Positions 9,201-63,119 of a stretch of 64,000 bases of DNA are shown piece after piece. The position numbers and the translations under genes were made by a program. The DNA lies in assembly GCA_031551135.1 (NCBI GenBank), contig JAVBOA010000026.1:26683-90682 (forward strand), in the 5' to 3' direction. Positions within the stretch are counted from its first letter, which is position 1; each line of letters begins with the position of its first letter. Below the pieces are notes generated by a model, which saw only the letters and a list, made by a program, of their open reading frames with translations, was not told the DNA's origin and did no database searches. The DNA comes from Eubacteriales bacterium. Lineage in GTDB: Bacteria; Bacillota; Clostridia; Lachnospirales; JAITVM01.

Positions 9201-9578
9201 ATAAAATTATCAGACGAAGCCAAGAATATGGAAATGGCGGCTAAACAAGGCGATATTGGATTTTGTTTAGAGCATTTTGACAGTTTCCTTAGAGGCTATC
9301 AAAAAATGAATGATGATTTGTCGGATGTTTTTCTGAGTACAGATTGTGTTTCTTTAGAAACCGTGGAGATTGATGAGCTGGTTAATGCGCTTGAAAAAGT
9401 AAAAGATGACCTTGAAAATTATCTTTTGGATGCTCCCGAAGAAATTGTATCGAGATATATAAAAATGACATTTGGAGAAAAAATAGATACCAAGCTTTCT
9501 GAGCTAATGGATAAAATTTCGCAAATGGATTATTTTGGAGCTATTGAAACCGTTGACGAAATATTATTACTTGATTGA
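6210..9578 (+). CDS. hybrid sensor histidine kinase (multi-PAS, HisKA, HATPase, REC, HPt)
   Basis: 1122 aa. H-box SHEIRTPMNAI; N/G boxes LLSNAVKFT and GTGLGLVITK; receiver DIVFMDHMMPEMDG; C-terminal HPt-like EIHGAKGYL. The N-terminal ~530 aa carry repeated PAS-like modules. No TM segment is obvious. Confidence 0.9.
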   Translation: MTDDENKLFTNFTELMALDNILLFELYPEKEQLILHKSDFTKFLLGFENKTTINNCMSFFNKVIHPDDFGKIDNAIKNISLGREVRHTQCRIRHFELKEWTEVMISSNRDSSSLGLHVLGIIRVLSEDEIYSMKYKTDLKLKMILDYNPTICIIFDSEGKILDINKAACILFNLPNKQSFIEKFLELFPELQPDGKNSIEKMRYLISESVKGKKIVVDWLHQDLLNRPIETKVTLVPVKANNSSYVLAYIEDMRMTHQMIRAIKELKTEMENSKGLMLDSSPLACDMWDDEMNMIFCNKSAYELFGLSSIEEYCENHRLLSAEYQENGRLSSEYAPEMVSIAIKNSEHTFNWLHRKITGEIIPARVTLKKVNYGDSFRIIGYIYDLRAEMQANKQAFEADQRSKLMTEINPITTTIWNSKCELIDCNASALKMFRVESIEELQDNFMKFFPEYQPDGRLSEVAFKENMNFANLEGKRTLESVHKDSKGNLFLTEVIMFRVKLMDEECIVAYTRDISAEREIISVMKKAKEAAEQGEKAKSSFLANMSHEIRTPMNAIIGMSELLLHEELSEKQHRFVQDINVSSTSLLSIINDILDFSKIEAGKLELVKNNYSIRSLLDNIASSMRVVAEKKNLEFISSISDELPICLYGDDVKLRQILTNLLSNAVKFTKYGFVSFHADISNNDGEELVFSIKDSGIGIKAENFNRLFNPFEQLDKVENKNVEGTGLGLVITKRIIEMMNGGIEMISEYGKGTEFIVRLPLIIGDVSKMNSDIKDFRFVKAKNAEILVVDDVEANLRVISALLEMSGIICDTASSGSDGIEKIKNKDYDIVFMDHMMPEMDGIETCRKIRSLGGKFENIKIIALTANAVSGARETMLEAGMDDFLSKPIDKMLLNGILIKHLPNSKIDEIQEIEENFIGELSDILKKVKLIKGIDLEYALSLMGNNQKIYENALAFFLKQYENTRKKLVQHLESLDSKAFAVEIHGAKGYLRTLGAIKLSDEAKNMEMAAKQGDIGFCLEHFDSFLRGYQKMNDDLSDVFLSTDCVSLETVEIDELVNALEKVKDDLENYLLDAPEEIVSRYIKMTFGEKIDTKLSELMDKISQMDYFGAIETVDEILLLD

Positions 9579-9589
9579 GGTGGAAATTG

Positions 9590-10648
9590 ATGAAGAAGGA
9601 ACTTTTTTTTAGGACGGCTGACTTACTTAGTATCAAAGAATTGGATAATGGACCAATTTATAAAAATGAATTGACACAGTATTTTTTCTATCTTGATACG
9701 TATCTTACTATTGCGGAAGAATTTTTTGTCTCGTTTGATTTAGATAGTATTGCAAATAAGACTGATTTATTTATAGAGGGGCTAAATAAACAGATTTATG
9801 CTTTGAAAAAATTGAATCTGGAAAAATTGATGGAACAAACAGAAAATCTGATAAAACTCATAGAAAATAAGGAGTTTGAAAAATCGAAAGAGGAATACAA
9901 AAAATTGGCCATTGATAACGAAGAATTGTATTCTAAAATAAATAACGCAAATATAAGTAAGGGTATTGATGGAGAAGTTATTAAATATAACGAAACTATC
10001 AGAAAAAATTCAGTTTTTTATAAAAAAGTTCAGAAATATAAAACTTTGCCTCTGGAAACATTGGATAAAGGAAAAGTAGAGGAAATGCTTAAACTGGTAA
10101 ATGATTTTCAGCTTTTGGAAGCAGGGCATGTTCTGAGCACTGTAATGCAAAAAAAATACGGCGAAAAAATTGATTATTTATTAATTGAGCTGAAACACAA
10201 TTTTGATAATTTCGAGGCTGCCGCCGCACAAAAAACTCTGACAAAAATTGCGTTTGCTTCAGCCGATAAAAATGCAGTGGCCACAGAAAAGAAAAGCATA
10301 CTTGCGATAGATGACAATGTCGGGGTTTTAAATACGTTAAAGGCCATGCTGAAAGATTATTATGAATTATTTTGTATTCCGAATCCCAATGCAGTTTTTA
10401 AATTTTTGGAAAATAGAGAAAGCTTAGACATGATTCTGCTTGATATAGAAATGCCTGAAATGGATGGCTATGAGCTTTTGACATTAATCAAAAAATATAC
10501 TAAATATGAAAAAATACCGGTGATTTTTCTAACCGGAAATGCGACCAAAGACCATTTATTAAAAGCAGTTGAAATGTCCGCTGTTGATTTTATCAGTAAG
10601 CCGGTAGATTTGGAGACACTTTTATCAAAAATAAAAAAACATATATAA
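9590..10648 (+). CDS. response-regulator receiver protein with uncharacterised helical N-terminal domain
   Basis: C-terminal REC (ILAIDDN, LLDIEMPEMDG, FLTGN, SKPV). The N-terminal ~230 aa have no recognisable output domain. ATG 9590 follows GAGGTGG and overlaps the kinase stop. Confidence 0.8.
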   Translation: MKKELFFRTADLLSIKELDNGPIYKNELTQYFFYLDTYLTIAEEFFVSFDLDSIANKTDLFIEGLNKQIYALKKLNLEKLMEQTENLIKLIENKEFEKSKEEYKKLAIDNEELYSKINNANISKGIDGEVIKYNETIRKNSVFYKKVQKYKTLPLETLDKGKVEEMLKLVNDFQLLEAGHVLSTVMQKKYGEKIDYLLIELKHNFDNFEAAAAQKTLTKIAFASADKNAVATEKKSILAIDDNVGVLNTLKAMLKDYYELFCIPNPNAVFKFLENRESLDMILLDIEMPEMDGYELLTLIKKYTKYEKIPVIFLTGNATKDHLLKAVEMSAVDFISKPVDLETLLSKIKKHI

Positions 10649-10673
10649 TCTACCTATCTTATTTTATTATAGA

Positions 10674-10702
10674 TTGACAATTACGAAATTATTTAGTAGA
10701 AT
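10674..10702 (+). promoter_or_regulatory. sigma-A type promoter of the malonate decarboxylase operon
   Basis: TTGACA - 17 nt - TAGAAT. Confidence 0.6.
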
Positions 10703-10706
10703 AATT

Positions 10707-10780
10707 GTGAGAGATTTGAGAGATATATTTAGAAATTTGAGACAAATTTAATAATTTAGAGTGTATGAGGATACAGTAAG
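10707..10780 (+). promoter_or_regulatory. leader with periodic (G/U)AG repeats, candidate HutP-family binding array
   Basis: TTTGAGA 10715, TTTAGA 10728, TTTGAGA 10736, TTTAGAG 10755, then GAG 10767, CAG 10774 and AAG 10778. The register is about 9-10 nt, and the last triplets lie in the 5' arm of the terminator. Confidence 0.5.
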
Positions 10781-10819
10781 CCATGTTTGGTCATGGTTTT
10801 TGTGTCCTTTTTTTATTTT
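10768..10819 (+). terminator. leader (attenuator) terminator upstream of the mad operon
   Basis: AGGATAC..GCCATG TTTGGT CATGG..GTGTCCT extended stem followed by TTTTTTTATTTT. It sits between the promoter and the first RBS (AAAGGAGGTG). Confidence 0.65.
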
Positions 10820-10838
10820 CGCTAAAGGAGGTGAATAT

Positions 10839-11138
10839 ATGCTGGCAGGACAGGACATATCGTTTGCACAATCAATTGTAATTTCTTTATCCGGCATGGC
10901 AATCGTAATGCTGGAATTGGTATTATTGGCTTTAGTAATTATTGCATTATCCAGAATAATAGCTAAATTTGAAAAAAAAGATACACCGCAAAAAGCAGTT
11001 GCACCGGCACCGGCGCAAGTAGTAACAGCGATTCATGATGAAAATGATGATGAATTGGCGGCAGTAATGGTAGCTGTTTGTGAAGAATCAAAAATTCCGC
11101 TGAACGAAATCGTATTTAAGAATATTCAAAAATTATAA
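10839..11138 (+). CDS. OadG-like small membrane subunit of Na+-translocating decarboxylase
   Basis: ATG 10839 follows AAAGGAGGTG; the track ORF from 10761 would read through the terminator. One TM helix plus an Ala/Pro stretch; it lies next to the biotin carrier and beta-subunit genes. Confidence 0.6.
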   Translation: MLAGQDISFAQSIVISLSGMAIVMLELVLLALVIIALSRIIAKFEKKDTPQKAVAPAPAQVVTAIHDENDDELAAVMVAVCEESKIPLNEIVFKNIQKL

Positions 11139-11158
11139 AATAAAAGAGGAGAATTGAA

Positions 11159-11548
11159 ATGAAATATATCGTAAAAGTTAATGGAAAAGCATATGAAGTT
11201 GAGATAGAAAGAAGCACAGCAGGAGGATATGCAGCACCACAAATGGCAGCACCGGCATACGCAGCACCACAAATGGCTGCACCTGCATATGCTGCACCGA
11301 CACCTGTACATACACCTGCGCCTGCTGCATCCGCCGGAGCAGAAGTAAGAAGTCCGCTTGCCGGAAATATATTCAATATTTTAGTAAATGTCGGAGACAG
11401 AGTTGCTTTCGGTCAAAATTTAATTGTTATTGAAGCAATGAAAATGGAAAATGAAGTTGTTTCTCCATGTGAGGGAGTTATTAAACAAATTTTAGTATCA
11501 AAAGGCAGTGTTGTTGACGCAGATGATGTTTTGATAGTTATCCAATAG
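11159..11548 (+). CDS. biotin carboxyl carrier protein of malonate decarboxylase (MadF-like)
   Basis: C-terminal biotinyl domain with EAMKMENE. The Ala/Pro linker contains a tandem AAPQMAAPAY duplication. Confidence 0.85.
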   Translation: MKYIVKVNGKAYEVEIERSTAGGYAAPQMAAPAYAAPQMAAPAYAAPTPVHTPAPAASAGAEVRSPLAGNIFNILVNVGDRVAFGQNLIVIEAMKMENEVVSPCEGVIKQILVSKGSVVDADDVLIVIQ

Positions 11549-11577
11549 AATTACAAAATTATAAAGAGGTGAAATAA

Positions 11578-12723
11578 GTGAACTTTATTGATGTAATTGT
11601 TGAAACTGCCAAAGCGTCGGGTTTTGCGGCTATGACTTCTCAGCAGGGTATAATGCTGTTGGTTTCTTTCGCGCTTCTGTACCTCGCGATTGTAAAAAAA
11701 TTCGAGCCATTATTACTTCTTCCGATTTCTTTCGGAATGCTTTTAGCAAATTTGCCTTTGGCAGGGCTAATGTATGAATCGACTGAACATTGGTATGACT
11801 CCGGTGTTCTGAGAAATATTTATTATGGTGTAAAATCCGGAATTTTTCCATGTTTAATATTTATGGCTGTTGGTGCGATGTCGGATTTCGGTCCGCTTAT
11901 TGCAAATCCGATAAGTTTATTATTGGGAGCGGCAGCTCAATTAGGAATTTATATGGCGTTTACTATTGCTAATAATATAGGAATTTTCACGCCCGAACAA
12001 GCGGCGGCTATTGGAATAATCGGAGGCGCAGACGGTCCGACCGCTATTTTTCTGGCCTCAAAGATCGCGCCGGAGCTTCTGGGGCCGATTGCCGTCGCGG
12101 CGTATTCATATATGGCGCTGATACCATTAATTCAGCCGCCGATTATGAGATTGCTCACAACTAAAAAAGAACGTGAAGTAAGAATGGATCAATTGAGAAA
12201 AGTAAGTAAAACTGAAAAAATTATGTTTCCTATTTTTGTTACGGTAATTTGTTCTTTAATGCTTCCATCTGTTGCACCATTGATTGGTATGCTTATGTTG
12301 GGAAATCTTTTTAAAGAATCCGGAGTTGTTGACAGGCTCAGCGACACGGCTCAAAACGCTTTGTGTAATATCGTTACAATACTTCTCGGTGTGACTGTCG
12401 GCGCGACAGCAGACGGAAAAGTATTCCTTCAAGTTCAAACTCTTGCTATCGTTGCGCTTGGACTTATCGCATTTGCTTTTTCTACAGCCGGTGGTGTATT
12501 ATTAGGTAAACTATTATATATTATTACCAAGGGAAAAGTAAATCCGTTAATCGGCTCCGCCGGTGTTTCGGCAGTTCCGATGGCAGCGCGTGTTTCTCAA
12601 GTAGAAGGCAAGAGGGCAAATCCGACAAACTTTTTATTGATGCACGCTATGGGACCGAATGTTGCCGGTGTTATTGGGTCGGCGGTTGCCGCAGGATTCT
12701 TCTTATTGCTTTTCTCTAAATAA
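11578..12723 (+). CDS. madB: Na+-translocating carboxybiotin decarboxylase beta subunit (OadB/GcdB/MadB family)
   Basis: 381-aa polytopic membrane protein with [14 protein letters not shown] and [13 protein letters not shown] motifs typical of the beta-subunit family. Confidence 0.9.
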
Positions 12724-12774
12724 TATATAATTCTCCTAATTATTGCGGAGAGAATATTTAGAGAAGGTGGAAGT

Positions 12775-13221
12775 ATGGACTCGATTTTTAACCCGAATTG
12801 TGAAGGAATAGGTTCAACGGTCGGCTATGCGGCAATGCTTTTGGCTATGACCAGAACTTTAATGGACGAAGATATTTTAAAAAAAATTATAGAAAAAGAA
12901 AAAAAATTGAAATTTGTTGTGACAGAAATGGGTGGAAAATCTAACGGAGATTTTCAGGAAAAAATAAGCAAAGCGGTTTTGGGCGCAAGCCTGAACGGCG
13001 GTATTATAAAAAAAGACGCGGCGAGTATTCACGCTGTTTTGCATGCCGCAGAGGAAGCGAAACGCGGAGTTTTGATTAATATGACTTCGATTACTCAAGT
13101 TGCGCTGAAAATAGCCATAGTGCGTGATGAAACATGGATAGCCGTGGCGATGTTTGGCGAGTCGTTTATTCACCCTGTTACAAATCATGAACGTTGTGGG
13201 CTTGGGATAATGCATATTTAA
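12775..13221 (+). CDS. hutP: HutP-family RNA-binding antiterminator-like protein
   Basis: 148 aa, the same size as B. subtilis HutP. The C-terminus ...AVAMFGESFIHPVTNHERCGLGIMHI parallels HutP ...AVSLYGTIGAPIKGLEHETFGVGINHI, and LHAAEEA parallels LYHATMEA. Confidence 0.75.
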   Translation: MDSIFNPNCEGIGSTVGYAAMLLAMTRTLMDEDILKKIIEKEKKLKFVVTEMGGKSNGDFQEKISKAVLGASLNGGIIKKDAASIHAVLHAAEEAKRGVLINMTSITQVALKIAIVRDETWIAVAMFGESFIHPVTNHERCGLGIMHI

Positions 13222-13290
13222 AGCGGTTTGTTTTTTTTGAAAAATATCATTTGAATAAGAAATGAACCGCATATGATGAGGAGGTATCAG

Positions 13291-14955
13291 ATGCAGAACC
13301 AAAAACGTTGGAACACTTTGAAAAGAGATTATGTAGATAGAATCAGATCGGCGATACCGTATGTTAAGTTTGGAAAAAACGTTGACGCGAAAGATGCGGT
13401 CGCGCTTTTGGAAACTGTGATAAAACCTTTTGATAAAGTAAATATAGAGGGCGATAACCAAAAACAGGCAGATTTTTTGGCAGAATGTCTTTGCAAAGTG
13501 AATAAAGAAAAAATAAATAATCTTCATATAGTACAGTCGGCGGTTTCCTTGAGCAGCCATTTGGAGCTTTTTGAAAAAGGAATTGCAAAAAAACTTGACT
13601 TTTCTTTTTCCGGACCGCAGTCGCAGAAAGTCGCGAAACTATTAAAAGAAGGAAAATTGGAGCTTGGCGCGATACATACATATATGGAGCTTTACGCCAG
13701 ATATTTTATGGACTTAACGCCGCGTGTTGCTTTAGTAGCCGCATATCAGGCAGATAGGCAAGGTAATTTATATACAGGCTTTAATACCGAAGATTCGCCG
13801 GTTGTTATTGAAGCTACGAAATTTAAAAATGGAATAATTATTGCACAAGTAAATGAAATTGTTGACCGGCTTCCTAGGGTTGATATTCCTGCGGATTGGG
13901 TCGATTTTGTAATACAATCTCCAAAACCGTTTTATGTTGAACCGCTTTTTACAAGAGACCCGTATTTAATCAGCGATGCGCAGATTTTGCGTGCTATGAT
14001 GGCGATTAAAGGAATTTATGCGGAATACGGCGTACAAAGATTGAATCACGGTATTGGTTTTGATACGGCGGCTATCGAACTTTTGCTTCCGACTTATGGT
14101 GAAGAACTGGGTTTGAAAGGCAAAATTTGTTCTTATTTCGCTTTGAATCCGCATCCTTCATTAATTCCGGCTATCGAAAGCGGCTGGGTAAAATCTATTC
14201 ATTGCTTCGGCGGTGAATTGGGAATGGAAGAATATATTCGCAACCGTACAGATATTTTCTTTGTCGGGCCGGATGACAGTCTGCGTTCGAATCGTGCTTA
14301 TTCGCAAATGGCAGGGCATTACGCTTTGGATATGTTTATCGGCGGAACTCTGCAAATTGATGAATTCGGAAACAGCTCTACGGCAACCGCCGACAGAATA
14401 GCAGGATTTGGCGGAGCGCCGAATATGGGAAGCGATTCGAAAGGAAGACGGCATTCCACAGCCGCGTGGTTAAAATGCGGAAGTGAATACGGTATGCAAA
14501 AGCAATTGATTGGCGAAATGCCGCGCGGAAAACGCCTTGTTGTTCAATTGCAGGAGACCTTCAGAGAAAAATTAGCGCCGGGTTTTGTAGAAAAATTAGA
14601 TGCATGGGAATTGGCTGAAAATTCCGGATTAGATATTCCGCCGGTAATGATTTACGGTGATGATGTTACTCATATCGTAACCGAAGAGGGAATCGCGTAT
14701 CTTATTAAATGCGAAAGCCTTGAGGAACGAACTGCGGCAATCAGGGCAGTTGCCGGATTTACAGATGTCGGATTAAAAGCGGATTCTTTGAAAACAAAAG
14801 AATTACGAAAAAAAGGAATTGTTAAAACTCCGGAAGATTTAGATATTGATATAACACGTGCTAACCGAAACCTTTTGGCCGCCAAAAACGTAAGAGAATT
14901 GGTCAAATGGTCCGGCGGTCTTTATAATCCGCCAGCGCGTTTCAGAAACTGGTAA
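13291..14955 (+). CDS. mdcA: malonate decarboxylase alpha subunit (acetyl-S-ACP:malonate ACP transferase)
   Basis: About 554 aa. The EGDNQKQADFL motif and overall length match MdcA/MadA. ATG 13291 follows AGGAGG. Confidence 0.9.
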   Translation: MQNQKRWNTLKRDYVDRIRSAIPYVKFGKNVDAKDAVALLETVIKPFDKVNIEGDNQKQADFLAECLCKVNKEKINNLHIVQSAVSLSSHLELFEKGIAKKLDFSFSGPQSQKVAKLLKEGKLELGAIHTYMELYARYFMDLTPRVALVAAYQADRQGNLYTGFNTEDSPVVIEATKFKNGIIIAQVNEIVDRLPRVDIPADWVDFVIQSPKPFYVEPLFTRDPYLISDAQILRAMMAIKGIYAEYGVQRLNHGIGFDTAAIELLLPTYGEELGLKGKICSYFALNPHPSLIPAIESGWVKSIHCFGGELGMEEYIRNRTDIFFVGPDDSLRSNRAYSQMAGHYALDMFIGGTLQIDEFGNSSTATADRIAGFGGAPNMGSDSKGRRHSTAAWLKCGSEYGMQKQLIGEMPRGKRLVVQLQETFREKLAPGFVEKLDAWELAENSGLDIPPVMIYGDDVTHIVTEEGIAYLIKCESLEERTAAIRAVAGFTDVGLKADSLKTKELRKKGIVKTPEDLDIDITRANRNLLAAKNVRELVKWSGGLYNPPARFRNW

Positions 14956-14969
14956 GGAGGGTTCAAGAA

Positions 14970-15296
14970 ATGGCGTTAAATGAAATTACTTTTAGTTTTA
15001 CACCGCAAAGTAAATTTATTACTATAGATAAAGAATGGTCACATAACGGCGTTGTTGGGTCGGGAGATTTAGAGGTACTGATTCGTTTTAAAGAACAAAA
15101 AGGACTTGTTAATGTAAAAATTAATACACCTGTGAGCGGATTCGATGACGTTTGGAAAAAAGTAATCAGCAAAACTCTTTCAGAAATTAATTTGGGAAAC
15201 GCTGACATAGAAATTAATGATAATAACGCTACTCCTTTTATAGTGGCAATGCGCATAAGGCAAGGGATTATTGAGGCAAAAGGAGGCGCTGTTTAA
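14970..15296 (+). CDS. mdcC: malonate decarboxylase acyl carrier protein (delta subunit)
   Basis: 108 aa. GVVGSGDLEVL surrounds the prosthetic-group serine, as in MdcC/CitD. Confidence 0.85.
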   Translation: MALNEITFSFTPQSKFITIDKEWSHNGVVGSGDLEVLIRFKEQKGLVNVKINTPVSGFDDVWKKVISKTLSEINLGNADIEINDNNATPFIVAMRIRQGIIEAKGGAV

Positions 15297-16261
15297 TGAT
15301 TAAATGGAAAGATGCTCAGAATTTGAGCTTTTATGAATCGTCGGCAAGAACAAGAGCGTTTAATCTTCCTGACGAAAATACTTTTACAGAGCTTTTAGGC
15401 CCTGATAATTATGTTACTTCTCCGCATTTGCCAGTACTTGGCGAAGCTGTATCTTTTGATGACGGCGTTGTAACCGGTGTTGGCATGATTGGTAAAAGAC
15501 CTGTTTTTATAATTTCGCAAGAAGGAAAATTTATCGGCGGTGCTGTCGGCGAAGTTGGCGGCGCAAAGATGGTTGGGATTTTCAAGCTTGCACTTCAAGC
15601 TTACGATAAAATAAAAGCAAAATATCCGAATGATTATGAAAGCCGCATTCCGGCTGTAATTATATCTTTTGAAACAGGCGGTGTGCGCCTGCACGAAGCT
15701 AACGCCGGACTTTTGGCACATGCCGAAGTTATGGAACTCATACAATATTGCCGTGGAAAAATCCCTGTAGTTTCGCTTATTGGCAGTAAGCTTGGATGTT
15801 TTGGCGGAATGGGATTTGTTTCGGTTGCAACCGATGTTGTAATAATGAGCGAATTAGGAAGAATCGGTTTGACCGGTCCGGAAGTTATTGAAGAAGTAAT
15901 GGGTAAAAAAGTATTTGATTCGTCGGATAGAGCTATGATTTACCGTACTACGGGCGGCAAGCATAAATATATACTCGGAGATTGCAATTATCTTGTTTCT
16001 GATACAATCGGCTCTTTCAGAGAACAATTAATTGATTTATTAAAAATGTCTTATGCGGATATCGCTGCACATAGAATAATCGGAACTTTTGATTTGGTTC
16101 AGGAACAGCTTGGACTTGTAGATTTAGCCGTAAGGCTTGCCCCAAAAGATTCTAAAGATGTTTGGGCGTATTTCGGAAATCCAAATCCGGATATTATTCA
16201 AGACCAATCCTACGAAGAATTTATTTCAAGCGCAAAAGTAAGACAAAGGGGGACAGTGTAA
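15296..16261 (+). CDS. mdcD: malonate decarboxylase beta subunit (carboxyltransferase, MdcD/MadC)
   Basis: 321-aa carboxyltransferase-fold protein. The ATGA overlap with mdcC indicates translational coupling. Confidence 0.85.
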   Translation: MIKWKDAQNLSFYESSARTRAFNLPDENTFTELLGPDNYVTSPHLPVLGEAVSFDDGVVTGVGMIGKRPVFIISQEGKFIGGAVGEVGGAKMVGIFKLALQAYDKIKAKYPNDYESRIPAVIISFETGGVRLHEANAGLLAHAEVMELIQYCRGKIPVVSLIGSKLGCFGGMGFVSVATDVVIMSELGRIGLTGPEVIEEVMGKKVFDSSDRAMIYRTTGGKHKYILGDCNYLVSDTIGSFREQLIDLLKMSYADIAAHRIIGTFDLVQEQLGLVDLAVRLAPKDSKDVWAYFGNPNPDIIQDQSYEEFISSAKVRQRGTV

Positions 16262-17127
16262 TGGCAGGTTTAGTTGGAAAAGGCAGAGATGCTATTGCAA
16301 TGATTGTTGACCCAAATAGTTTTAACGAAAATATTATCGGAAATTATTCTCAAGACCCAAACCTTGGGCCGGGAGCGGTTATCGGTACGGCTTTGATAAA
16401 TGGAAAAAATGCAACAATTATTTCGAATGATGCGATGGCTAAAAATAAAAAATTCCCTCTTGTTTATTCGGGCGTTATTGGCTTGGAAGAAGGCTATAAA
16501 ATGGCTATAGCTGTTTACAAAACAATCGAGGCAGACGAAAATTCACCTGTAAAGCGACCACTGGTATTGATTGTAGATACACCCGGCAATGGTTTGGGAA
16601 AAATCGAAGAAATTTTCGGTATGAATAAATCTACAGGCTCGTATCAATTGGCTTTGACGGAGGCTAGGCAAAAAGGACATCCCGTAATTGCGGTTATAAT
16701 CGGAAGAGCGATAAGCGGCGCATTTTTATGCCACGGATTGCAGGCTGACCATATTATTTCGCTTTCGAAGGATTTCGGAACAATGATTCATGTTATGCCG
16801 CTTGTTGGTATTGCGCGCATCACAAAAATGGATATTGAAACATTAGAAAACCTTGCAAAAGTCAATCCGGTTTTTGCCGCCGGTTCAGATTTCTTTTATA
16901 AACTCGGCGGAGTTGAAGAAATAATCGAAAAAATCGAAGATATTAGAAATATTGTGATTAAGCATATAAACGAGGTTTATGCTTTGACAGCATCGGGAAG
17001 CTTAGAAAAAACAGGACCTTGCAGCCGCGGCGATTTGGGCAATCAAAGAGGCGGACGGAAAACAAGACCTGAGGTACTCAAAAAAATGTACGCTCAATTT
17101 GATGAAATTGAGTCGAAATATTTGTAA
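16261..17127 (+). CDS. mdcE: malonate decarboxylase gamma subunit (carboxyltransferase, MdcE/MadD)
   Basis: ATG 16261 overlaps the mdcD stop (TAATG). The 33-codon extension in the track ORF lies inside mdcD. Carboxyltransferase-like (VDTPGNG). Confidence 0.8.
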   Translation: MAGLVGKGRDAIAMIVDPNSFNENIIGNYSQDPNLGPGAVIGTALINGKNATIISNDAMAKNKKFPLVYSGVIGLEEGYKMAIAVYKTIEADENSPVKRPLVLIVDTPGNGLGKIEEIFGMNKSTGSYQLALTEARQKGHPVIAVIIGRAISGAFLCHGLQADHIISLSKDFGTMIHVMPLVGIARITKMDIETLENLAKVNPVFAAGSDFFYKLGGVEEIIEKIEDIRNIVIKHINEVYALTASGSLEKTGPCSRGDLGNQRGGRKTRPEVLKKMYAQFDEIESKYL

Positions 17128-17156
17128 TACTATTTACCTTTAGGCGGGAAATAGTA
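17128..17156. repeat. TIR-hairpin element, minimal form (29 bp, two termini only)
   Basis: TACTATTTACCTTT AGGC GGGAAATAGTA starts immediately after the mdcE TAA. Confidence 0.8.
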
Positions 17157-17177
17157 TGAAAATCAGAAAACGGCTTA

Positions 17178-17219
17178 TACTATTTTCAATATAAAGAATA
17201 GAAAAAAATGGAAATAGTA
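17178..17219 (-). repeat. TIR-hairpin element, short form (42 bp)
   Basis: TACTATTTTCAATATAAAGAATAGAAAAAAATGGAAATAGTA. Confidence 0.9.
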
Positions 17220-17254
17220 TTAAACGCCGTTTTCGATTCTTTGGAGTGATATAT

Positions 17255-18331
17255 ATGAATCCAATTGATGATTTAAAATTTTTTTTGGAAAATTGCGAAA
17301 CGGCACCGAATTTTTCGGAAATGCCGAGAAGAAGCTTGAGTGATAAGGGAGTTGACGGGCCTACAGGTGCTCATGTTATAGAAGAAATCCATACACCGTT
17401 TAATTTGGCGTATATCAGTATTACAACGGGAACAACGGCTTTCCAGAATATCGCCGGTGTCACGCACAACGAGATTTCCGACAGAATTTCAGCTTCGATT
17501 AAAGCTCTTGAGCTTTCCGGCGTAAAACGGGGAGATAAAATTTTAATCACATACCCTCCGCTTGTTAATGTCTTTTCAAAAGAAGCTTTGGAAATATACG
17601 GCGTTGAGCATTTTTTTCTGGAGCGTTCGTGCCGTGATGCATTACTTTTGGCATTGGCCGAAAAAAAGCCGAATATCGTAATCGGTGAATCTAGCTTTTT
17701 GCGCGCATCTATTGAGGATGCAAAAAAACTAGATATCATCGATTTAATCCCAAAAGGGATTGTTTTTTTGGCGGCAGGAACTCCGCTTGATTTGGATTTT
17801 GTTCCTGCGGCGGAAAATTTAGTCGGCGGCGTGGTGCACGACCTTTATGGATGTCAGGAATTTGGCTGGCTTGCGGTTGACGGTATTCCTTTGCGAAAAG
17901 ATATTTCTCTTGTTCCGGAAAAAGGTGAGAATTTTCATTTAGTTGCCGGCGGACTGCCTACAGGCGATTGCTTTCCGAAAATCGATAACGGGCATATTTG
18001 CAATATAGACGGCAAAATTATCACCTATTCAAGAATCCGTACAAACGAAGAATTAGAATTGACTGTTTTGGAGTCTACAGCAAAATCGATTGATACTTTG
18101 TATCGTTTGGCGAAAACTATTTTGCGCATAAAAGGAAAAATTGTCCGGATATCAAAAAATGTTGTTCTGAATAGCGAAAAAACTGTGCTTTCGCTTGCAA
18201 ATTATGGCGAAAACGAAGGCTTTATTATCTCCGGAAAAGATAAAACCCTTATGTTTGACACTTTATTAGAAGCACAAATGGCGTATCAATCGGAAAACAA
18301 AACTGATCCGACTTGGCTTAAAAGGAGGTAA
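17255..18331 (+). CDS. adenylate-forming ligase-like protein, candidate ACP-SH:acetate ligase (MadH-like)
   Basis: ITTGTTAFQ resembles the AMP-binding T(S)GTTG motif. Its position between the carboxyltransferase and holo-ACP synthesis genes mirrors madH in the Malonomonas-type cluster. Confidence 0.5.
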   Translation: MNPIDDLKFFLENCETAPNFSEMPRRSLSDKGVDGPTGAHVIEEIHTPFNLAYISITTGTTAFQNIAGVTHNEISDRISASIKALELSGVKRGDKILITYPPLVNVFSKEALEIYGVEHFFLERSCRDALLLALAEKKPNIVIGESSFLRASIEDAKKLDIIDLIPKGIVFLAAGTPLDLDFVPAAENLVGGVVHDLYGCQEFGWLAVDGIPLRKDISLVPEKGENFHLVAGGLPTGDCFPKIDNGHICNIDGKIITYSRIRTNEELELTVLESTAKSIDTLYRLAKTILRIKGKIVRISKNVVLNSEKTVLSLANYGENEGFIISGKDKTLMFDTLLEAQMAYQSENKTDPTWLKRR

Positions 18332-18333
18332 AA

Positions 18334-19815
18334 ATGTTCAAAAGGCATAATCTTTTGGAGATAAATAACGAAGGAAGAGAATTTGCGCTTAATCAAGCTT
18401 TGGAATTAAATCAAAAAATTTCTCCCGAGTTATTGAGAGAGCTGATTGTAGATTCGAAAACCCCCGGCATAGTTAAGCGTCAGAACAGCGTTAGAGAAGG
18501 ATTTATCGAAATCGGATTTTCTTCTTGGAAATATATTGATGGCCGAAGATTGAGAGCTGAGTCATTTGTACCGCTTTCGGCGGTTGAGAAAGTCATTACT
18601 CCTTTTGAATTAATGAATTACCGTGAAGACGGCAATTTTATTTTAAATGAATTAGTAAAAATAGCTGATGATTTAAATATTTCTCTTGGAGTATTCGGGT
18701 CGGCGGCGATGCAAATTTATTCAAAAAAGAATTATATGAACGAAAATTCTGATTATGATATTTATATTTCGTGTAAAAAAAGAAGGGATATTGAATTATT
18801 CTACGAAAATATAAAAAATAACGAACGTTTGAAAAATGTAAAATTAGATATAGAACTTGAGATAGCGAATAATTACTCTGTGAAACTCATTGAAATTTTT
18901 TCGGGTCAGAAAACCGCATTGGCAAAAGGAATTTGGGATGCAAGATTATTTGATATCGAGGATATAATAAATGGTTTTTCCTATGATATCCGTGAAATTG
19001 TATCGAGAAACGCCGTTCGGGCTTTGCTTTATGAAGTGGCGGTGACTCCAAAACCCGGGCTTGTGGATATGAACAATAACGGTTCGCATAAAGATATGGA
19101 TTTTTTTAGATTTATCGATAGCGCAACCGTATTAACGCCGTATTTTGCAAAATTATTTGATTCGGGTGTAAAAAACAGGGATAAACATGAATTATTCGAA
19201 AAAATCAGATACATTGGAATGACTGCAGAGGACGCGATGAAAAAAGCTACAGACGGCGTAAATACTCATAAGGGCGCGATATTTTCTTTGGGTGTTTTTT
19301 GTGCGGCTGTCGGATTTTTTTATGCTGAAAAAAATAAATATAATACTGATGAAGTTTTTGAAATTTGCGGCTCTATGAGCGAGCTAATGCTGAATGATGA
19401 GTTGAACTCGATTACTCTTGAAAACGCAAAAACTTTTGGGGAATTTTTATATATAAATCACGGCATAAGCGGAATCAGAGGAGAAGTCGCTTCGGGGTTC
19501 AAAACGATTCGTGAAATCGGACTTCCGATTTTAAAGGATTTATTAAGCAAAGGCTATTCTATCAATGATGCTTCATTGCTCGTGCTTCTGAATTATATTG
19601 CAGAGACTACCGATACTAATATGATAAAAAGAGGCGGCTTCGAAATTAATGAAGAAGCTAAGTGGAAAGCAAAAGATATTCTGGAAAATCCCTATAAAAA
19701 GCTTATTTTTGATTTAGATAAATATTTTATTGAAAGAAATTTAAGTCCCGGCGGCTGCGCCGATTTATTAAGCGTAACGCTTATGGCGTATTTTATGGAA
19801 AAAGAAGCTTTATAA
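18334..19815 (+). CDS. fused phosphoribosyl-dephospho-CoA transferase (MdcG) / triphosphoribosyl-dephospho-CoA synthase (MdcB/CitG)
   Basis: The N-terminal ~200 aa carry MdcG-like GVFGSAAMQ...SDYDIYIS...KLDIELEI. The C-terminal ~285 aa carry the CitG/MdcB signature VAVTPKPGLVDMNNNGSHKDMDF. Confidence 0.8.
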   Translation: MFKRHNLLEINNEGREFALNQALELNQKISPELLRELIVDSKTPGIVKRQNSVREGFIEIGFSSWKYIDGRRLRAESFVPLSAVEKVITPFELMNYREDGNFILNELVKIADDLNISLGVFGSAAMQIYSKKNYMNENSDYDIYISCKKRRDIELFYENIKNNERLKNVKLDIELEIANNYSVKLIEIFSGQKTALAKGIWDARLFDIEDIINGFSYDIREIVSRNAVRALLYEVAVTPKPGLVDMNNNGSHKDMDFFRFIDSATVLTPYFAKLFDSGVKNRDKHELFEKIRYIGMTAEDAMKKATDGVNTHKGAIFSLGVFCAAVGFFYAEKNKYNTDEVFEICGSMSELMLNDELNSITLENAKTFGEFLYINHGISGIRGEVASGFKTIREIGLPILKDLLSKGYSINDASLLVLLNYIAETTDTNMIKRGGFEINEEAKWKAKDILENPYKKLIFDLDKYFIERNLSPGGCADLLSVTLMAYFMEKEAL

Positions 19816-19853
19816 AGCGGAAGTATCTTCTGCTTCATAAAGCTTCTTTTTTT
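19804..19853. terminator. bidirectional terminator between convergent genes
   Basis: Perfect 10-bp outer stem GAAGCTTTAT / ATAAAGCTTC with an inner hairpin, followed by T7. It overlaps the stop codon of the mdcG-mdcB fusion. Confidence 0.8.
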
Positions 19854-19857
19854 AGTA

Positions 19858-62558: not shown

Positions 62559-63119
62559 ATGGACGATTTTAGAAATATGTTTGGGAAGATTACACAGAAT
62601 ATTACAAAAACATCCACAGGTGTTTTAAAATCAGTAAAGCTCTCTGTTAATTTAGCCAATGAAGAAGATAAATTAAAATCGATTTATTATGAAATTGGCA
62701 GAAAAGTACATGAAATATATGCTTACGGCGGCACTTTGGGTACTTTCTTTGATGAAAAATATCTGGAAATCACTGAATCCGAAAAACGTATAAAAGAACT
62801 TAAAGAGCAGATTGAAAATTCTAAAGGGACAAAACTTTGTCCGAATTGCAGCCGCTCAATCTCCGATTCGGCGGTTTTTTGTCCGAAATGCGGGCATAAA
62901 TTGACTTTCGAGGAAAGCAAAACAGAAACGCCGGCGGCGGAAATCAAACCGGAGATAAAGCCTGAAAACAAACAAGAAATTAAAATCGAGCCTACTCCTG
63001 TTGATATTGAAGAAAAGCCTGAAAATTTAGCAAATTCTGATATAAAAACCTGCTCTGCCTGCGGTCATCTCAATTCATCGTCAGATAGATTTTGTCTGGC
63101 TTGCGGCAGAAATTTGTAA
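62559..63119 (+). CDS. double zinc-ribbon protein with N-terminal coiled region
   Basis: CPNC...CPKCG and CSACG...CLACG ribbons. The N-terminus is paralogous to the next gene. Confidence 0.6.
   Translation: MDDFRNMFGKITQNITKTSTGVLKSVKLSVNLANEEDKLKSIYYEIGRKVHEIYAYGGTLGTFFDEKYLEITESEKRIKELKEQIENSKGTKLCPNCSRSISDSAVFCPKCGHKLTFEESKTETPAAEIKPEIKPENKQEIKIEPTPVDIEEKPENLANSDIKTCSACGHLNSSSDRFCLACGRNL

What the first reader, a model, noticed from the sequence alone, without database searches (positions are those of the whole stretch)
10674..13221. HutP-family protein embedded in a malonate decarboxylase operon, with a (G/U)AG-repeat leader and attenuator
- **Leader layout.** The operon starts with a good promoter (TTGACA-17-TAGAAT), then a leader of about 130 nt. 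The leader contains AUUU(G)AGA-type repeats with NAG triplets at 10711, 10720, 10730, 10739, 10757 and 10767, a register of about 9-10 nt. It ends in a strong terminator (10768-10819) whose 5' arm contains the last NAG triplets.
- **The protein.** A 148-aa HutP homolog is encoded between madB and mdcA.
- **Comparison with known HutP.** B. subtilis HutP is a hexameric antiterminator that binds UAG triplets with 4-nt spacers in the hut leader when L-histidine and Mg2+ are bound. Here the family member sits in a different catabolic operon, with a different repeat spacing, and downstream of its presumed target, which would make it autoregulated.
- **Extra site.** A further UUUAGAG overlaps the hutP-like RBS (12757-12763).

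This suggests an undescribed HutP-type riboregulatory switch, possibly responding to malonate or a related metabolite.
Basis: partly seen in the sequence, partly recalled or inferred. Interest (0 to 1): 0.7.

Follow-up and report, generated by a model that had tools for sequence, protein, structure and literature searches.

The report
HutP-type attenuator controlling malonate decarboxylase genes
A distant relative of the Bacillus RNA-binding antiterminator HutP sits inside a malonate decarboxylase operon and, in more than 100 related loci, always travels with GAG-repeat RNA sites that overlap a transcription terminator, which points to an undescribed protein-based RNA switch for malonate use.

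Summary
The window has a near-consensus promoter (10674-10702) and a leader of about 130 nt with AUUU(G)AGA repeats. A strong terminator follows (10767-10819, -22.7 kcal/mol), then a ten-gene biotin-type malonate decarboxylase operon with a 148-aa HutP-family gene at 12775-13221.

- About 56 of 80 related genome loci place this HutP clade in a malonate decarboxylase cluster. Another 21 place it next to a family III CoA-transferase.
- Nearly all carry the same cis element on the hutP strand: two or three GAG-type units, the last forming the 5' arm of an intrinsic terminator.
- Many also have the element over hutP's own ribosome-binding site.
In the window only the terminator-proximal site follows it (GAG-N5-GAG-N4-CAG).

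The protein keeps the HutP fold and, by my numbering, the three metal-binding histidines, but not three of the four histidine-pocket residues I compared (Glu81 is kept).

The best reading is effector-dependent antitermination, probably by malonate with a divalent metal, plus translational feedback. RNA binding, effector and direction of control are all untested. I found no prior description. I rate it a new variant of a known kind.

The parts
10674..10702 (+). sigma-70-type promoter TTGACA-17-TAGAAT; the expected transcription start is near 10709
   Evidence: It matches 11 of 12 positions and is the top site in the scan. The sequence was read.
10709..10744 (+). Upstream repeat cluster ('site I'): GAGAGA (10709), GAGAGA (10718), UAGAAA (10730) and GAGACA (10739), separated by U-rich spacers with spacings of 9, 10-12 and 9 nt
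   Evidence: The leaders of L081, L087, L089, L001 and L002 have a comparable cluster, mostly at an 8-nt period.
10757..10776 (+). Terminator-proximal site ('site II'): UAGAGUGUAUGAGGAUACAG, read as GAG(10759)-N5-GAG(10767)-N4-CAG(10774)
   Evidence: It matches the family element, for example UCAGAGUGAAUGAGGGACAGAG in L018 and GGGUAUUAGAGGAUAGCAG in L089. It is one of only two terminator-like sites in the window that pass the family motif rule.
10767..10819 (+). Intrinsic terminator (attenuator): hairpin 10767-10809 plus a U-tract at 10810-10819
   Evidence: -22.7 kcal/mol, z = -7.2.
10839..11138 (+). OadG-like gamma subunit of a Na+-translocating decarboxylase
   Evidence: Pfam OAD_gamma 50 bits; TIGR01195 42.7 bits.
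11159..11548 (+). Biotin carboxyl carrier protein (plays the MadF role)
   Evidence: Pfam Biotin_lipoyl 72 bits.
11578..12723 (+). Membrane carboxybiotin decarboxylase beta subunit, OadB-type
   Evidence: Pfam OAD_beta 529 bits; TIGR01109 491 bits; below the MadB equivalog cutoff.
12748..12774 (+). hutP 5' region with GAG units over the Shine-Dalgarno sequence: GAGAAU (12750), GAGAAG (12761), GGAAGU (12769)
   Evidence: Relatives have three GAG units at an 8-nt period here; 24 of the 74 period-8 triples on the hutP strand fall at a hutP RBS.
12775..13221 (+). HutP-family protein, 148 aa, the proposed RNA-binding regulator
   Evidence: Pfam HutP 112 bits. The AlphaFold2 model has pLDDT 88.7. 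Foldseek's top hit is 1wmq HutP, TM 0.73-0.75.
13291..14955 (+). mdcA/madA, malonate decarboxylase alpha subunit (acetyl-ACP:malonate ACP transferase)
   Evidence: TIGR01110 957 bits, above the 789 cutoff.
14970..15296 (+). Malonate decarboxylase acyl carrier protein (delta subunit)
   Evidence: TIGR03130 95.6 bits, above the 84.1 cutoff.
15296..16261 (+). Carboxyltransferase beta subunit (mdcD/madC type)
   Evidence: NF005530 358.7 bits.
16261..17127 (+). Carboxyltransferase gamma subunit (mdcE/madD type). The likely start is the ATG at 16261, which overlaps the upstream stop; the listed ORF begins at 16162.
   Evidence: TIGR03134 281.5 bits. The start was read.
17246..18331 (+). MadH-like acetate:SH-ACP ligase
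   Evidence: Only a weak Pfam AMP-binding hit here. Orthologues carry PF27502 MadH_C.
18334..19815 (+). Fused MdcG (holo-ACP synthase) and MdcB/CitG (triphosphoribosyl-dephospho-CoA synthase)
   Evidence: Pfam MdcG plus CitG; TIGR03135 plus TIGR03125/03132.
19799..19853 (.). Long near-perfect hairpin that ends the operon; a bidirectional terminator shared with the convergent amidase gene
   Evidence: Sequence read. It explains the spurious miRNA-model hits.

Best explanation
**What it is.** The 148-aa protein is a HutP-fold RNA-binding antiterminator that has been re-purposed for malonate catabolism.

**How it most likely works.**
1. Transcription starts at the promoter at 10674-10702.
2. By default it stops at the leader terminator (10767-10819).
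3. When the protein is loaded with its effector, it binds single-stranded GAG/NAG units in the leader. The effector is most likely malonate held through a divalent metal on a conserved three-histidine site.
4. The terminator-proximal units (GAG 10759, GAG 10767, CAG 10774) form the 5' arm of the terminator stem. Binding there keeps the hairpin from forming.
5. RNA polymerase then reads into oadG-BCCP-oadB-hutP-mdcA...mdcGB.
6. The upstream repeats (10709-10744) would occupy the second face of the presumed hexamer, as sites I and II do in Bacillus.
7. A further set of GAG units over the hutP Shine-Dalgarno sequence would let the active protein damp its own translation.

Because hutP lies downstream of the attenuator in this window, induction is also transcriptionally self-reinforcing and depends on basal read-through.

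**Shown:** the anatomy, the fold, conservation of the metal histidines, and the co-occurrence, position and strand specificity of the cis element.

**Inferred:** RNA binding, hexamer formation, antitermination as the direction of control, and the identity of the effector. I put malonate as the effector at about 0.45-0.5.
For: **1. Protein.**
- Pfam HutP 112 bits.
- AlphaFold2 model at pLDDT 88.7. Its only significant PDB matches are HutP-RNA and HutP-metal complexes, TM 0.70-0.75, E = 1.6e-8.
- Aligned to B. subtilis HutP, window H86, H90 and H138 fall at HutP H73, H77 and H138. All three are invariant in 34 clade members.
- The histidine-pocket residues differ: Y69 is absent, R88 lies in a stretch missing here, and R98 is replaced by T.

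**2. Gene context.**
- 53 of 80 species-level loci have hutP immediately upstream of mdcA, and a few more lie in malonate decarboxylase clusters. They span Clostridia, Negativicutes, Ilyobacter and Neobacillus.
- 37 loci also carry the malonate transporter genes madL/madM.
- 21 other loci have hutP, then a terminator, then a family III CoA-transferase. One of these is Sporomusa malonica.

**3. Cis element.**
- In 61 non-identical elements after hutP, a GAG-GAG distance of 8 nt occurs 60 times against 1.8 expected. A distance of 16 occurs 15 times against 1.5. A distance of 7 occurs 6 times against 2.
- The triple GAG-N5-GAG-N5-RRG occurs 74 times on the hutP strand and 4 times on the other strand in 2.96 Mb. 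Of the 74, 27 lie within 200 nt after a hutP stop, 24 over a hutP RBS and 14 in upstream leaders. The period-7 and period-9 versions show no such concentration.
- The same trend holds in 54 metagenome loci: 16 against 1.
- Terminators whose stem starts with the motif: 81 of 545 near hutP against 40 of 1833 elsewhere, odds ratio 7.8, p = 2e-26.

**4. The element moves with the system.**
- Where the hutP-mdcA spacer is short and has no terminator (the window, L083/L084, L087, L089), every operon leader that could be read (the window, L087, L089; L083/L084 are cut off at the contig end) carries the element.
- In Phascolarctobacterium faecium there are three attenuators in one cluster.

**5. No rival RNA explanation.**
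- The window leader has no alternative antiterminator fold.
- It has no Rfam match.
Against: - There is no experimental evidence for RNA binding, for the effector or for read-through.
- The window's upstream repeats are spaced 9, 10-12 and 9 nt, not the family's 8. The third unit of its proximal site is CAG at +7.
- The strict period-8 triple does not occur in the window's operon.
- A sequence-only HMM built from 41 relatives' elements did not retrieve the window leader. Membership of the window's leader therefore rests on a looser motif rule and on alignment to close relatives.
- The loci are phylogenetically related, so the z-scores and p-values overstate independence.
- Shine-Dalgarno regions are purine-rich anyway, which inflates GAG counts at the hutP RBS.
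- I could not check conservation of the RNA-contact residues. No list of them was available in the held papers.
- The metal and histidine-pocket residue numbers are from my own recollection of Kumarevel et al. 2005.
- The CoA-transferase's substrate is unknown. It falls below every NCBIfam equivalog cutoff, so the link from that context to malonate is only suggestive.
Confidence: 0.6

Rival explanations
1. The protein does bind the GAG repeats, but the outcome is repression. It would either stabilise termination or act mainly by blocking translation at GAG-rich ribosome-binding sites, as TRAP does. The operon would then be switched off, rather than on, by the ligand.
For: - GAG triples sit over the hutP RBS in 24 cases, and binding there would be inhibitory.
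- TRAP, another (G/U)AG-repeat binder, represses (own knowledge).
- In the window hutP lies downstream of the attenuator, so a pure activator has a bootstrapping problem.
Against: - The last repeat units are the 5' arm of the terminator itself in nearly every locus. Binding there removes the terminator rather than an antiterminator.
- No alternative antiterminator hairpin is predicted.
- Every characterised HutP acts as an antiterminator (PMC2425495, PMC12591593).
- A catabolic operon is normally induced by its substrate.
Confidence: 0.12
2. The HutP-fold protein is not the trans-acting factor. It is an accessory or small-molecule-binding component of the decarboxylase system. The GAG-rich attenuators would be controlled by something else, or would simply be leaky terminators that set subunit stoichiometry.
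For: - The gene is embedded among structural genes.
- RNA-contact residues were not verified.
- NCBIfam's HutP equivalog scores only 30.6 bits against a cutoff of 155, so the protein is highly diverged from the characterised HutP.
Against: - The same protein-plus-element pair also occurs with an unrelated target, a family III CoA-transferase, in 21 loci. In several of the Sporomusaceae loci among them hutP also has its own promoter. That pattern fits a regulator better than an enzyme subunit.
- The element also sits on hutP's own RBS.
- The biochemically characterised Malonomonas-type enzyme needs no such subunit (own knowledge; not checked here).
Confidence: 0.12
3. The mechanism is as in the best explanation, but the effector is not malonate. 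It could be another dicarboxylate, malonyl-CoA or acetyl-CoA, a metal alone, or still L-histidine.
For: - The CoA-transferases next to hutP resemble succinate-glutarate, mesaconate and oxalate CoA-transferases without reaching any cutoff.
- One locus (L041) pairs hutP with an Amidohydro_2 enzyme.
- Phascolarctobacterium carries two paralogues at about 48% identity, which could sense different ligands.
Against: - Malonate decarboxylase and MadLM malonate transporter genes are the dominant context.
- Three of the four histidine-pocket residues I compared are not conserved; Glu81 is kept.
- Sporomusa malonica degrades malonate via malonyl-CoA, which needs a CoA-transferase (own knowledge of Dehning and Schink; not checked here).
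Confidence: 0.3
4. The repeats are a chance product of an AT-rich, purine-skewed intergenic region, and the hairpin merely terminates the upstream response-regulator gene (9575-10648).
For: - The window has 35% G+C.
- The loose motif TTTG?AG reaches the same density in 4% of shuffles.
- The terminator does lie downstream of the response-regulator gene.
Against: - A near-consensus promoter lies between that gene's stop codon and the terminator.
- The same promoter-repeats-terminator leader occurs in relatives with different upstream genes (L081, L087, L089, L001, L002).
- The element shows a 74:4 strand bias and is concentrated at hutP.
Confidence: 0.03

Closest known systems
Bacillus subtilis HutP (hut operon antiterminator; PDB 1wmq, 3boy, 2gzt)
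   Same: - Same fold (Foldseek TM 0.73-0.75) and same Pfam family.
- The three metal-binding histidines align.
- The target is a set of NAG triplet repeats in single-stranded RNA that overlap an intrinsic terminator ahead of catabolic genes.
- A two-cluster layout is seen in the window's clade.
- In most relatives the gene order is hutP, terminator, structural genes, exactly as in hut.
   Different: - About 25% identity. It fails NCBIfam's HutP equivalog (30.6 bits against 155).
- Three of the four L-histidine pocket residues I compared (Y69, R88, R98) are not conserved.
- The repeat register is 8 nt (5-nt spacers) instead of 7 nt (4-nt spacers; PMC2425495).
- The preferred triplet is GAG (UGG in Phascolarctobacterium) rather than UAG.
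- The target operons encode malonate decarboxylase or a CoA-transferase, not hut.
- There is an extra site over its own RBS, and several attenuators per cluster.
- In this window the gene lies downstream of the attenuator.
[quoted passage not shown]
   Same: It is a ligand-activated oligomer that reads (G/U)AG triplet repeats. It controls both transcription attenuation and translation initiation at repeat-containing ribosome-binding sites (own knowledge; the comparison with HutP is made in PMC2425495).
   Different: - Unrelated fold (an 11-mer beta-wheel).
- 2-3 nt spacers.
- It binds the antiterminator region and so promotes termination.
- Its effector is tryptophan.
Known malonate regulators: MdcR (LysR-type), MdcY and MatR (GntR-type)
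   Same: They control malonate decarboxylase or malonate-utilisation genes in response to malonate (own knowledge).
   Different: They are DNA-binding transcription factors in Proteobacteria and Rhizobia that act at promoters. None is RNA-binding, and none is encoded in this window's operon.
Malonomonas rubra mad cluster (biotin-dependent, Na+-pumping malonate decarboxylase)
   Same: Same enzyme type: MadA/MdcA, ACP, two carboxyltransferase subunits, biotin carrier, membrane beta subunit, MadH ligase, MdcG and MdcB. Relatives also carry MadL/MadM and true MadB.
   Different: - The window uses an OadB-type beta subunit plus an OadG-like gamma subunit instead of MadB.
- It fuses MdcG to MdcB and lacks madLM.
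- I did not check whether the Malonomonas cluster's unassigned genes include a HutP-fold protein.

Membership tests
HutP family (Pfam PF09021) | Sequence match to the family model above the curated cutoff | tested here: met
   112.3 bits against a cutoff of 25, covering model positions 1-128 of 128.
HutP family (Pfam PF09021) | HutP fold: a four-stranded antiparallel sheet flanked by helices | tested here: met
   The AlphaFold2 model has pLDDT 88.7 and pTM 0.84, with element order H-H-E-H-H-E-E-E. The Foldseek top three hits are all HutP, TM 0.70-0.75, and the next hit has E = 0.016.
HutP family (Pfam PF09021) | Divalent-metal site formed by three histidines (B. subtilis H73, H77, H138; numbering from my own knowledge of Kumarevel et al. 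2005) | tested here: met
   They align to window H86, H90 and H138. All three are invariant in 34 clade members.
HutP family (Pfam PF09021) | Homohexamer with two RNA-binding faces | not testable with these tools
   Only a monomer was modelled. The two-cluster leader layout is consistent with two faces but proves nothing.
HutP family (Pfam PF09021) | Conservation of the residues that contact the A and G of NAG | not tested
   No residue list could be retrieved from the held papers.
Canonical HutP (histidine-utilisation antiterminator; NCBIfam NF002838 equivalog) | Score above the equivalog cutoff | tested here: not met
   30.6 bits against a cutoff of 155. Relatives score 27-37 bits.
Canonical HutP (histidine-utilisation antiterminator; NCBIfam NF002838 equivalog) | L-histidine pocket residues (Y69, E81, R88, R98; numbering from own knowledge) | tested here: not met
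   Only E81 is kept, as window E94. Y69 has no counterpart, R88 lies in a 4-residue stretch absent here, and R98 aligns to T.
Canonical HutP (histidine-utilisation antiterminator; NCBIfam NF002838 equivalog) | Encoded at the head of a hut (hutHUIG) operon | tested here: not met
   In the window it lies between oadB and mdcA. In relatives it lies next to mdcA (53 of 80) or a CoA-transferase (21 of 80). I did not search specifically for hutH or hutU.
Canonical HutP (histidine-utilisation antiterminator; NCBIfam NF002838 equivalog) | RNA target: two clusters of three NAG triplets with 4-nt spacers, within or next to a terminator (PMC2425495) | tested here: inconclusive
   NAG or GAG clusters overlapping a terminator are present. 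The register is 8 nt in the family. In the window it is 8 and 7 nt proximally and 9-12 nt distally.
Biotin-dependent Na+-translocating malonate decarboxylase (mad type) | MdcA/MadA, malonate-specific ACP, two carboxyltransferase subunits, biotin carrier, membrane carboxybiotin decarboxylase, and ACP-prosthetic-group enzymes | tested here: met
   All are found in 10839-19815. mdcA, the ACP and the beta and gamma subunits pass their equivalog cutoffs.
Biotin-dependent Na+-translocating malonate decarboxylase (mad type) | Beta subunit of the MadB equivalog (TIGR03136) | tested here: not met
   184.5 bits against a cutoff of 596.9; it is OadB-like. P. faecium's subunit passes at 654.6 bits.

The most novel reading that the evidence does not exclude
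The HutP fold is a re-programmable, metal-assisted metabolite sensor for RNA control, not a histidine-only curiosity of Bacillus. This clade would sense malonate as a metal chelate on the conserved three-histidine site. It would read GAG units at an 8-nt register and control a small regulon through several attenuators plus a translational feedback site on its own mRNA. The regulon would include the malonate decarboxylase and transporter genes of the human-gut genus Phascolarctobacterium. The 30-50% identical HutP-like clades of unknown context would then be further sensors for other metabolites.
Probability: 0.45. Interest if true: 0.72.

Novelty: new variant of a known kind. Interest (0 to 1): 0.62.

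Why it matters
- **A second function for the family.** HutP is treated in the literature, including a 2025 review (PMC12591593), as a single-system antiterminator for histidine utilisation in Bacillus. A second, widespread clade with a different operon, effector pocket and RNA register would turn it into a family of ligand-gated RNA-binding switches. It would also give a natural experiment on how triplet spacing and ligand specificity co-evolve.
- **A regulator for anaerobic malonate use.** It would supply the missing regulator for malonate decarboxylation in Firmicutes, Negativicutes and Fusobacteria, including abundant gut Phascolarctobacterium.
- **Annotation.** Public names such as 'hut operon positive regulatory protein' look mis-transferred for this clade.
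- **A possible tool.** The system offers a compact protein-RNA part that may respond to malonate.

Tried and rejected
- **First genome scan.** The scan with the single protein found no relatives. The alignment-based scan worked.
- **Consensus structure.** RNAalifold on a MAFFT alignment of 37 elements gave no consensus structure, because the variable loops misalign the stems. I therefore did not build a covariance model.
- **Sequence-only HMM.** An nhmmer profile of the 5' motif, built from 41 relatives, did not retrieve the window's leader. Its best window hits (23356-, 53974+) have E > 2 and are not credible. This negative result is kept in the evidence against.
- **Other repeat clusters in the window.** The clusters near 39.89 kb (- strand) and 46.2 kb have no adjacent terminator, and most or all of each lies inside a listed ORF, so I dropped them.
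- **Known RNA families.** Rfam has no match for the leader or for relatives' elements.
- **The upstream two-component genes.** The hybrid PAS histidine kinase (6210-9578) and the receiver protein (9575-10648) are not conserved next to the operon in relatives. They have no ANTAR-type RNA-binding domain, so I do not count them as part of the switch.
- **Protein-RNA covariation.** Window position E129 is K or Q where the first RNA unit is UGG, and E, D or N where it is GAG. This is confounded by phylogeny and is only a lead.
- **Literature.** Searches for HutP with malonate, for HutP-like proteins, and for antitermination with malonate decarboxylase found nothing relevant.
- **Residue-level papers.** Papers on HutP residues were not held.

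Full report
**1. What is in the window**

- The promoter is TTGACA (10674), a 17-nt spacer and TAGAAT (10702). It is the best promoter-like site in 10400-20200, matching 11 of 12 positions.
- From the expected start near 10709 to the ATG at 10839 there are about 130 nt.
- The leader begins GAGAGAUUUGAGAGAUAUAUUUAGAAAUUUGAGACAAAUUUAAUAAUUUAGAGUGUAUGAGGAUACAG.
- NAG triplets start at 10709/11, 10718/20, 10730, 10739, 10757/59 and 10767.
- ATTTG?AGA occurs four times within 60 nt. There are 19 copies on the whole + strand, and no other + strand 60-nt stretch has more than one; the - strand has one with two.
- The hairpin at 10767-10809 folds at -22.7 kcal/mol (z = -7.2) and is followed by U7AU4.

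Pfam and NCBIfam give one transcription unit:

| Coordinates | Gene |
|---|---|
| 10839-11138 | OadG-like gamma subunit |
| 11159-11548 | biotin carrier |
| 11578-12723 | OadB-type beta subunit |
| 12775-13221 | HutP-family protein (112 bits) |
| 13291-14955 | mdcA |
| 14970-15296 | acyl carrier protein |
| 15296-16261 and 16261-17127 | two carboxyltransferase subunits |
| 17246-18331 | MadH-like ligase |
| 18334-19815 | MdcG-MdcB fusion |

A long hairpin at 19799-19853 closes the unit. The hutP-mdcA spacer is 69 nt and has no terminator.

**2. The protein**

- It is far from canonical HutP in sequence. NCBIfam's equivalog gives 30.6 bits against a cutoff of 155, and phmmer against PDB sequences gives E = 0.003.
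- It has the HutP fold. An AlphaFold2 model built on 34 homologues has pLDDT 88.7. Its only significant PDB matches are HutP complexes, with TM 0.70-0.75.
- In the alignments, window H86, H90 and H138 fall on B. subtilis H73, H77 and H138. From my recollection of Kumarevel et al. 2005, these three histidines hold the Mg2+ that bridges to L-histidine. They are invariant in the clade.
- Of the histidine-pocket residues I recall (Y69, E81, R88, R98), only E81 has a counterpart.
- The fold and the metal site are therefore kept, while the ligand pocket has changed.
- The whole HutP-like sequence neighbourhood is small. Only 84 clusters at 50% identity match at E <= 1e-3 among 1.84 billion representatives.

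**3. Gene context in relatives**

- An alignment-based scan of one genome per species returned 80 loci.
- Probing them with the window's proteins shows hutP immediately upstream of mdcA in 53 loci. A few more lie in malonate decarboxylase clusters in other arrangements.
- The hosts include Clostridia, many Negativicutes (notably Phascolarctobacterium), Ilyobacter and Neobacillus.
- 37 loci also carry the malonate transporter genes madL/madM.
- In 21 further loci, mostly Sporomusaceae and including Sporomusa malonica DSM 5090, the order is hutP, terminator, family III CoA-transferase. Four of these loci show a carboxyltransferase match just downstream; the one scanned, L030, is MmdA-like.
- From my own knowledge, S. 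malonica decarboxylates malonate through malonyl-CoA. If so, both contexts are routes of malonate breakdown. The CoA-transferase's substrate is not established, though, because it falls below all equivalog cutoffs.
- 74 of 79 metagenome loci also carry mdcA next to hutP.

**4. The cis element**

The hutP-mdcA spacers of the relatives share a motif that runs into an intrinsic terminator. Examples:
- AAUAGUGGUGAAUGAGAGAAUGAAGG... in P. faecium
- AAGAGUGAAUGAGGGACAGAGUGG... in S. malonica
- AUUAUGAGAAUAUGAGGAUUACAAAC... in L081

Read as units, these are two or three hexamers (GAGUGA, GAGGGA, GAGAAU, GAGGAU, or UGGUGA as the first unit in Phascolarctobacterium). They repeat every 8 nt, and the last one or two form the 5' arm of the terminator stem.

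The numbers are as follows.
- In 61 non-identical elements, a GAG-GAG distance of 8 occurs 60 times against 1.8 expected. A distance of 16 occurs 15 times against 1.5. A distance of 7, the Bacillus register (4-nt spacers, PMC2425495), occurs 6 times against 2.
- The strict triple GAG-N5-GAG-N5-RRG occurs 74 times on the hutP strand and 4 times on the opposite strand in 2.96 Mb. Of these, 27 lie just after hutP, 24 lie over a hutP ribosome-binding site and 14 lie in leaders within 4 kb upstream. The period-7 and period-9 versions show no such concentration.
- The metagenome set behaves the same way, at 16 against 1.
- Terminator-like sites whose stem begins with the motif are enriched near hutP: 81 of 545 against 40 of 1833, odds ratio 7.8.

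These sequences are related to one another, so the statistics overstate independence. The strand and position specificity is still hard to explain without function.

**5. Where the window fits**

- The window belongs to a minority architecture in which hutP is internal, and, wherever the operon's 5' leader could be read, the attenuator sits there. Its relatives with the same gene order are L081, L087, L089, L001 and L002.
- Those relatives have the same leader plan:
  1. a promoter;
  2. an upstream cluster of GAG units, for example GAGAAU-GU-GAGAAU-AA-GAGAAU in L081;
  3. a linker, about 55 nt in L081;
  4. a proximal cluster, GGGUAU-UA-GAGGAU-AG-CAG in L089, that runs into the terminator.
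- The window's proximal site, GAGUGU-AU-GAGGAU-A-CAG, aligns with these with a one-base deletion, giving spacings of 8 and 7.
- It is one of only two terminator-like sites in the 64-kb window, on either strand, that pass the family motif rule. The other, at 62703, has a weak stem.
- The window's upstream cluster is spaced 9, 10-12 and 9 nt.
- A sequence-only HMM of the motif did not recover the window leader, which shows how degenerate this copy is.

**6. The site on hutP's own mRNA**

- Relatives often have a cleaner version. L081 and L002 have three GAG units at an 8-nt period. S. malonica has GAGUGA-GAUA-GAGGGA-AU-GAG with spacings of 10 and 8 nt. The sequences are:
  - GAGAAU-AU-GAGAAU-GU-GAGAGG in L081;
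  - GAGGAU-UU-GAGAGU-UU-GAGGAG in L002;
  - GAGUGA-GAUA-GAGGGA-AU-GAG, which makes up the whole short 5' UTR, in S. malonica.
- Purine-rich Shine-Dalgarno sequences inflate such counts. Even so, 24 strict period-8 triples at hutP start sites, against 9 elsewhere on that strand, is far above background.

**7. Mechanism**

- The most economical reading is HutP-style antitermination.
- Effector-loaded protein binds the single-stranded GAG units as they emerge and sequesters the 5' arm of the terminator. Polymerase then reads through.
- No alternative antiterminator hairpin is predicted, and no known RNA family matches.
- Binding over the hutP ribosome-binding site would give negative translational feedback.
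- In this window, hutP sits downstream of the attenuator. That adds positive transcriptional feedback and requires basal leakage.
- The effector is most plausibly malonate, perhaps as a metal chelate on the three-histidine site. This step is inferred from context and pocket changes only.
- The rivals are repression rather than activation, a non-regulatory role for the protein, a different effector, and chance. They are weighed in the structured fields.

**8. Comparison with what is known, and novelty**

- The system works like B. subtilis HutP and belongs to the Pfam HutP family.
- It fails the tests for canonical HutP on four counts: equivalog score, histidine pocket, hut context and the 7-nt register.
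- It shares with TRAP the use of (G/U)AG repeats and dual transcriptional and translational targets, but the fold is unrelated.
- Known malonate regulators (MdcR, MdcY, MatR) are DNA-binding proteins.
- Literature searches found no description of a HutP-family regulator of malonate genes. A 2025 review lists HutP only for Bacillus hut operons.
- I therefore rate it a new variant of a known kind. It is well supported as a conserved module and untested as a mechanism.

Noticed in passing
window 10839-12723: The membrane module of this malonate decarboxylase is an OadG-like gamma subunit plus an OadB-type beta subunit (TIGR01109 491 bits). It is not the MadB equivalog (184 bits against a cutoff of 596.9). 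Most relatives, such as P. faecium L078 7936-9147, have true MadB (654.6 bits). This suggests the Na+-pump subunit was swapped in the window's clade.
   Followed up: partly
window 18334-19815: MdcG (holo-ACP synthase) and MdcB/CitG (triphosphoribosyl-dephospho-CoA synthase) are fused into one 493-aa ORF. They appear as two separate matches or genes in every relative examined.
   Followed up: no
L078 6962-10560 (Phascolarctobacterium faecium DSM 14760); also L044, L045, L054, L056, L059, L062, L077, L080, L092: These loci carry two hutP paralogues at about 48% identity in one malonate decarboxylase cluster. In L078 (read in full) there are three attenuators, two in tandem before madB and one before mdcA, all with the AGUGGUGA-type motif. 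Why two paralogues share one motif type is unexplained; hetero-oligomers or two effectors are possible.
   Followed up: partly
L016 8228-11702 (Sporomusa malonica DSM 5090) and 20 other loci: Here hutP has its own promoter and is followed by the GAGUGA..GAGGGA..CAGAG terminator and a family III CoA-transferase of unassigned specificity. In S. malonica a PocR-domain chemoreceptor gene and cheW lie directly upstream. L030, L035, L040 and L070 show a carboxyltransferase match downstream of the CoA-transferase (MmdA-like in L030, the only one scanned).
   Followed up: partly
L041 10001-11841: In this locus hutP and an attenuator are followed by an Amidohydro_2-family enzyme instead of malonate decarboxylase or CoA-transferase genes. 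This is a third target type for the clade.
   Followed up: no
L160 and L162, about 7989-8390: The mdcA-proximal hutP copy matches in two separate tblastn pieces, which suggests a frameshift or an assembly error in these metagenome contigs.
   Followed up: no
window 6210-10648: A hybrid PAS histidine kinase with a receiver domain (1122 aa), and a 357-aa protein with a C-terminal receiver domain and an unassigned N-terminal 240 aa, lie directly upstream of the operon promoter. Relatives have different neighbours (L081: a histidine kinase plus an AraC-type response regulator).
   Followed up: partly
window 19796-19853: A long near-perfect hairpin between the convergent mdcGB and amidase genes produces weak hits to plant and animal miRNA models in Rfam on both strands. 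It is a bidirectional terminator, not a miRNA.
   Followed up: yes
window residue E129 of the HutP-like protein (codon at about 13159-13161): This alignment column is K or Q in loci whose first RNA unit is UGG, and E, D or N in loci where it is GAG. It may be a specificity determinant, but the pattern is confounded by phylogeny.
   Followed up: partly
P0122-P0199, alignment A3: There are dozens of HutP-like clusters at 30-50% identity to the window protein, and most keep the His-x3-His...His pattern.
   Followed up: no
P0032, P0050, P0118 and others: Public sources name members of this clade 'hut operon positive regulatory protein'. Among the loci inspected they sit next to malonate decarboxylase or CoA-transferase genes, so the name appears to have been transferred by homology only. 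I did not search specifically for hutH or hutU.
   Followed up: partly
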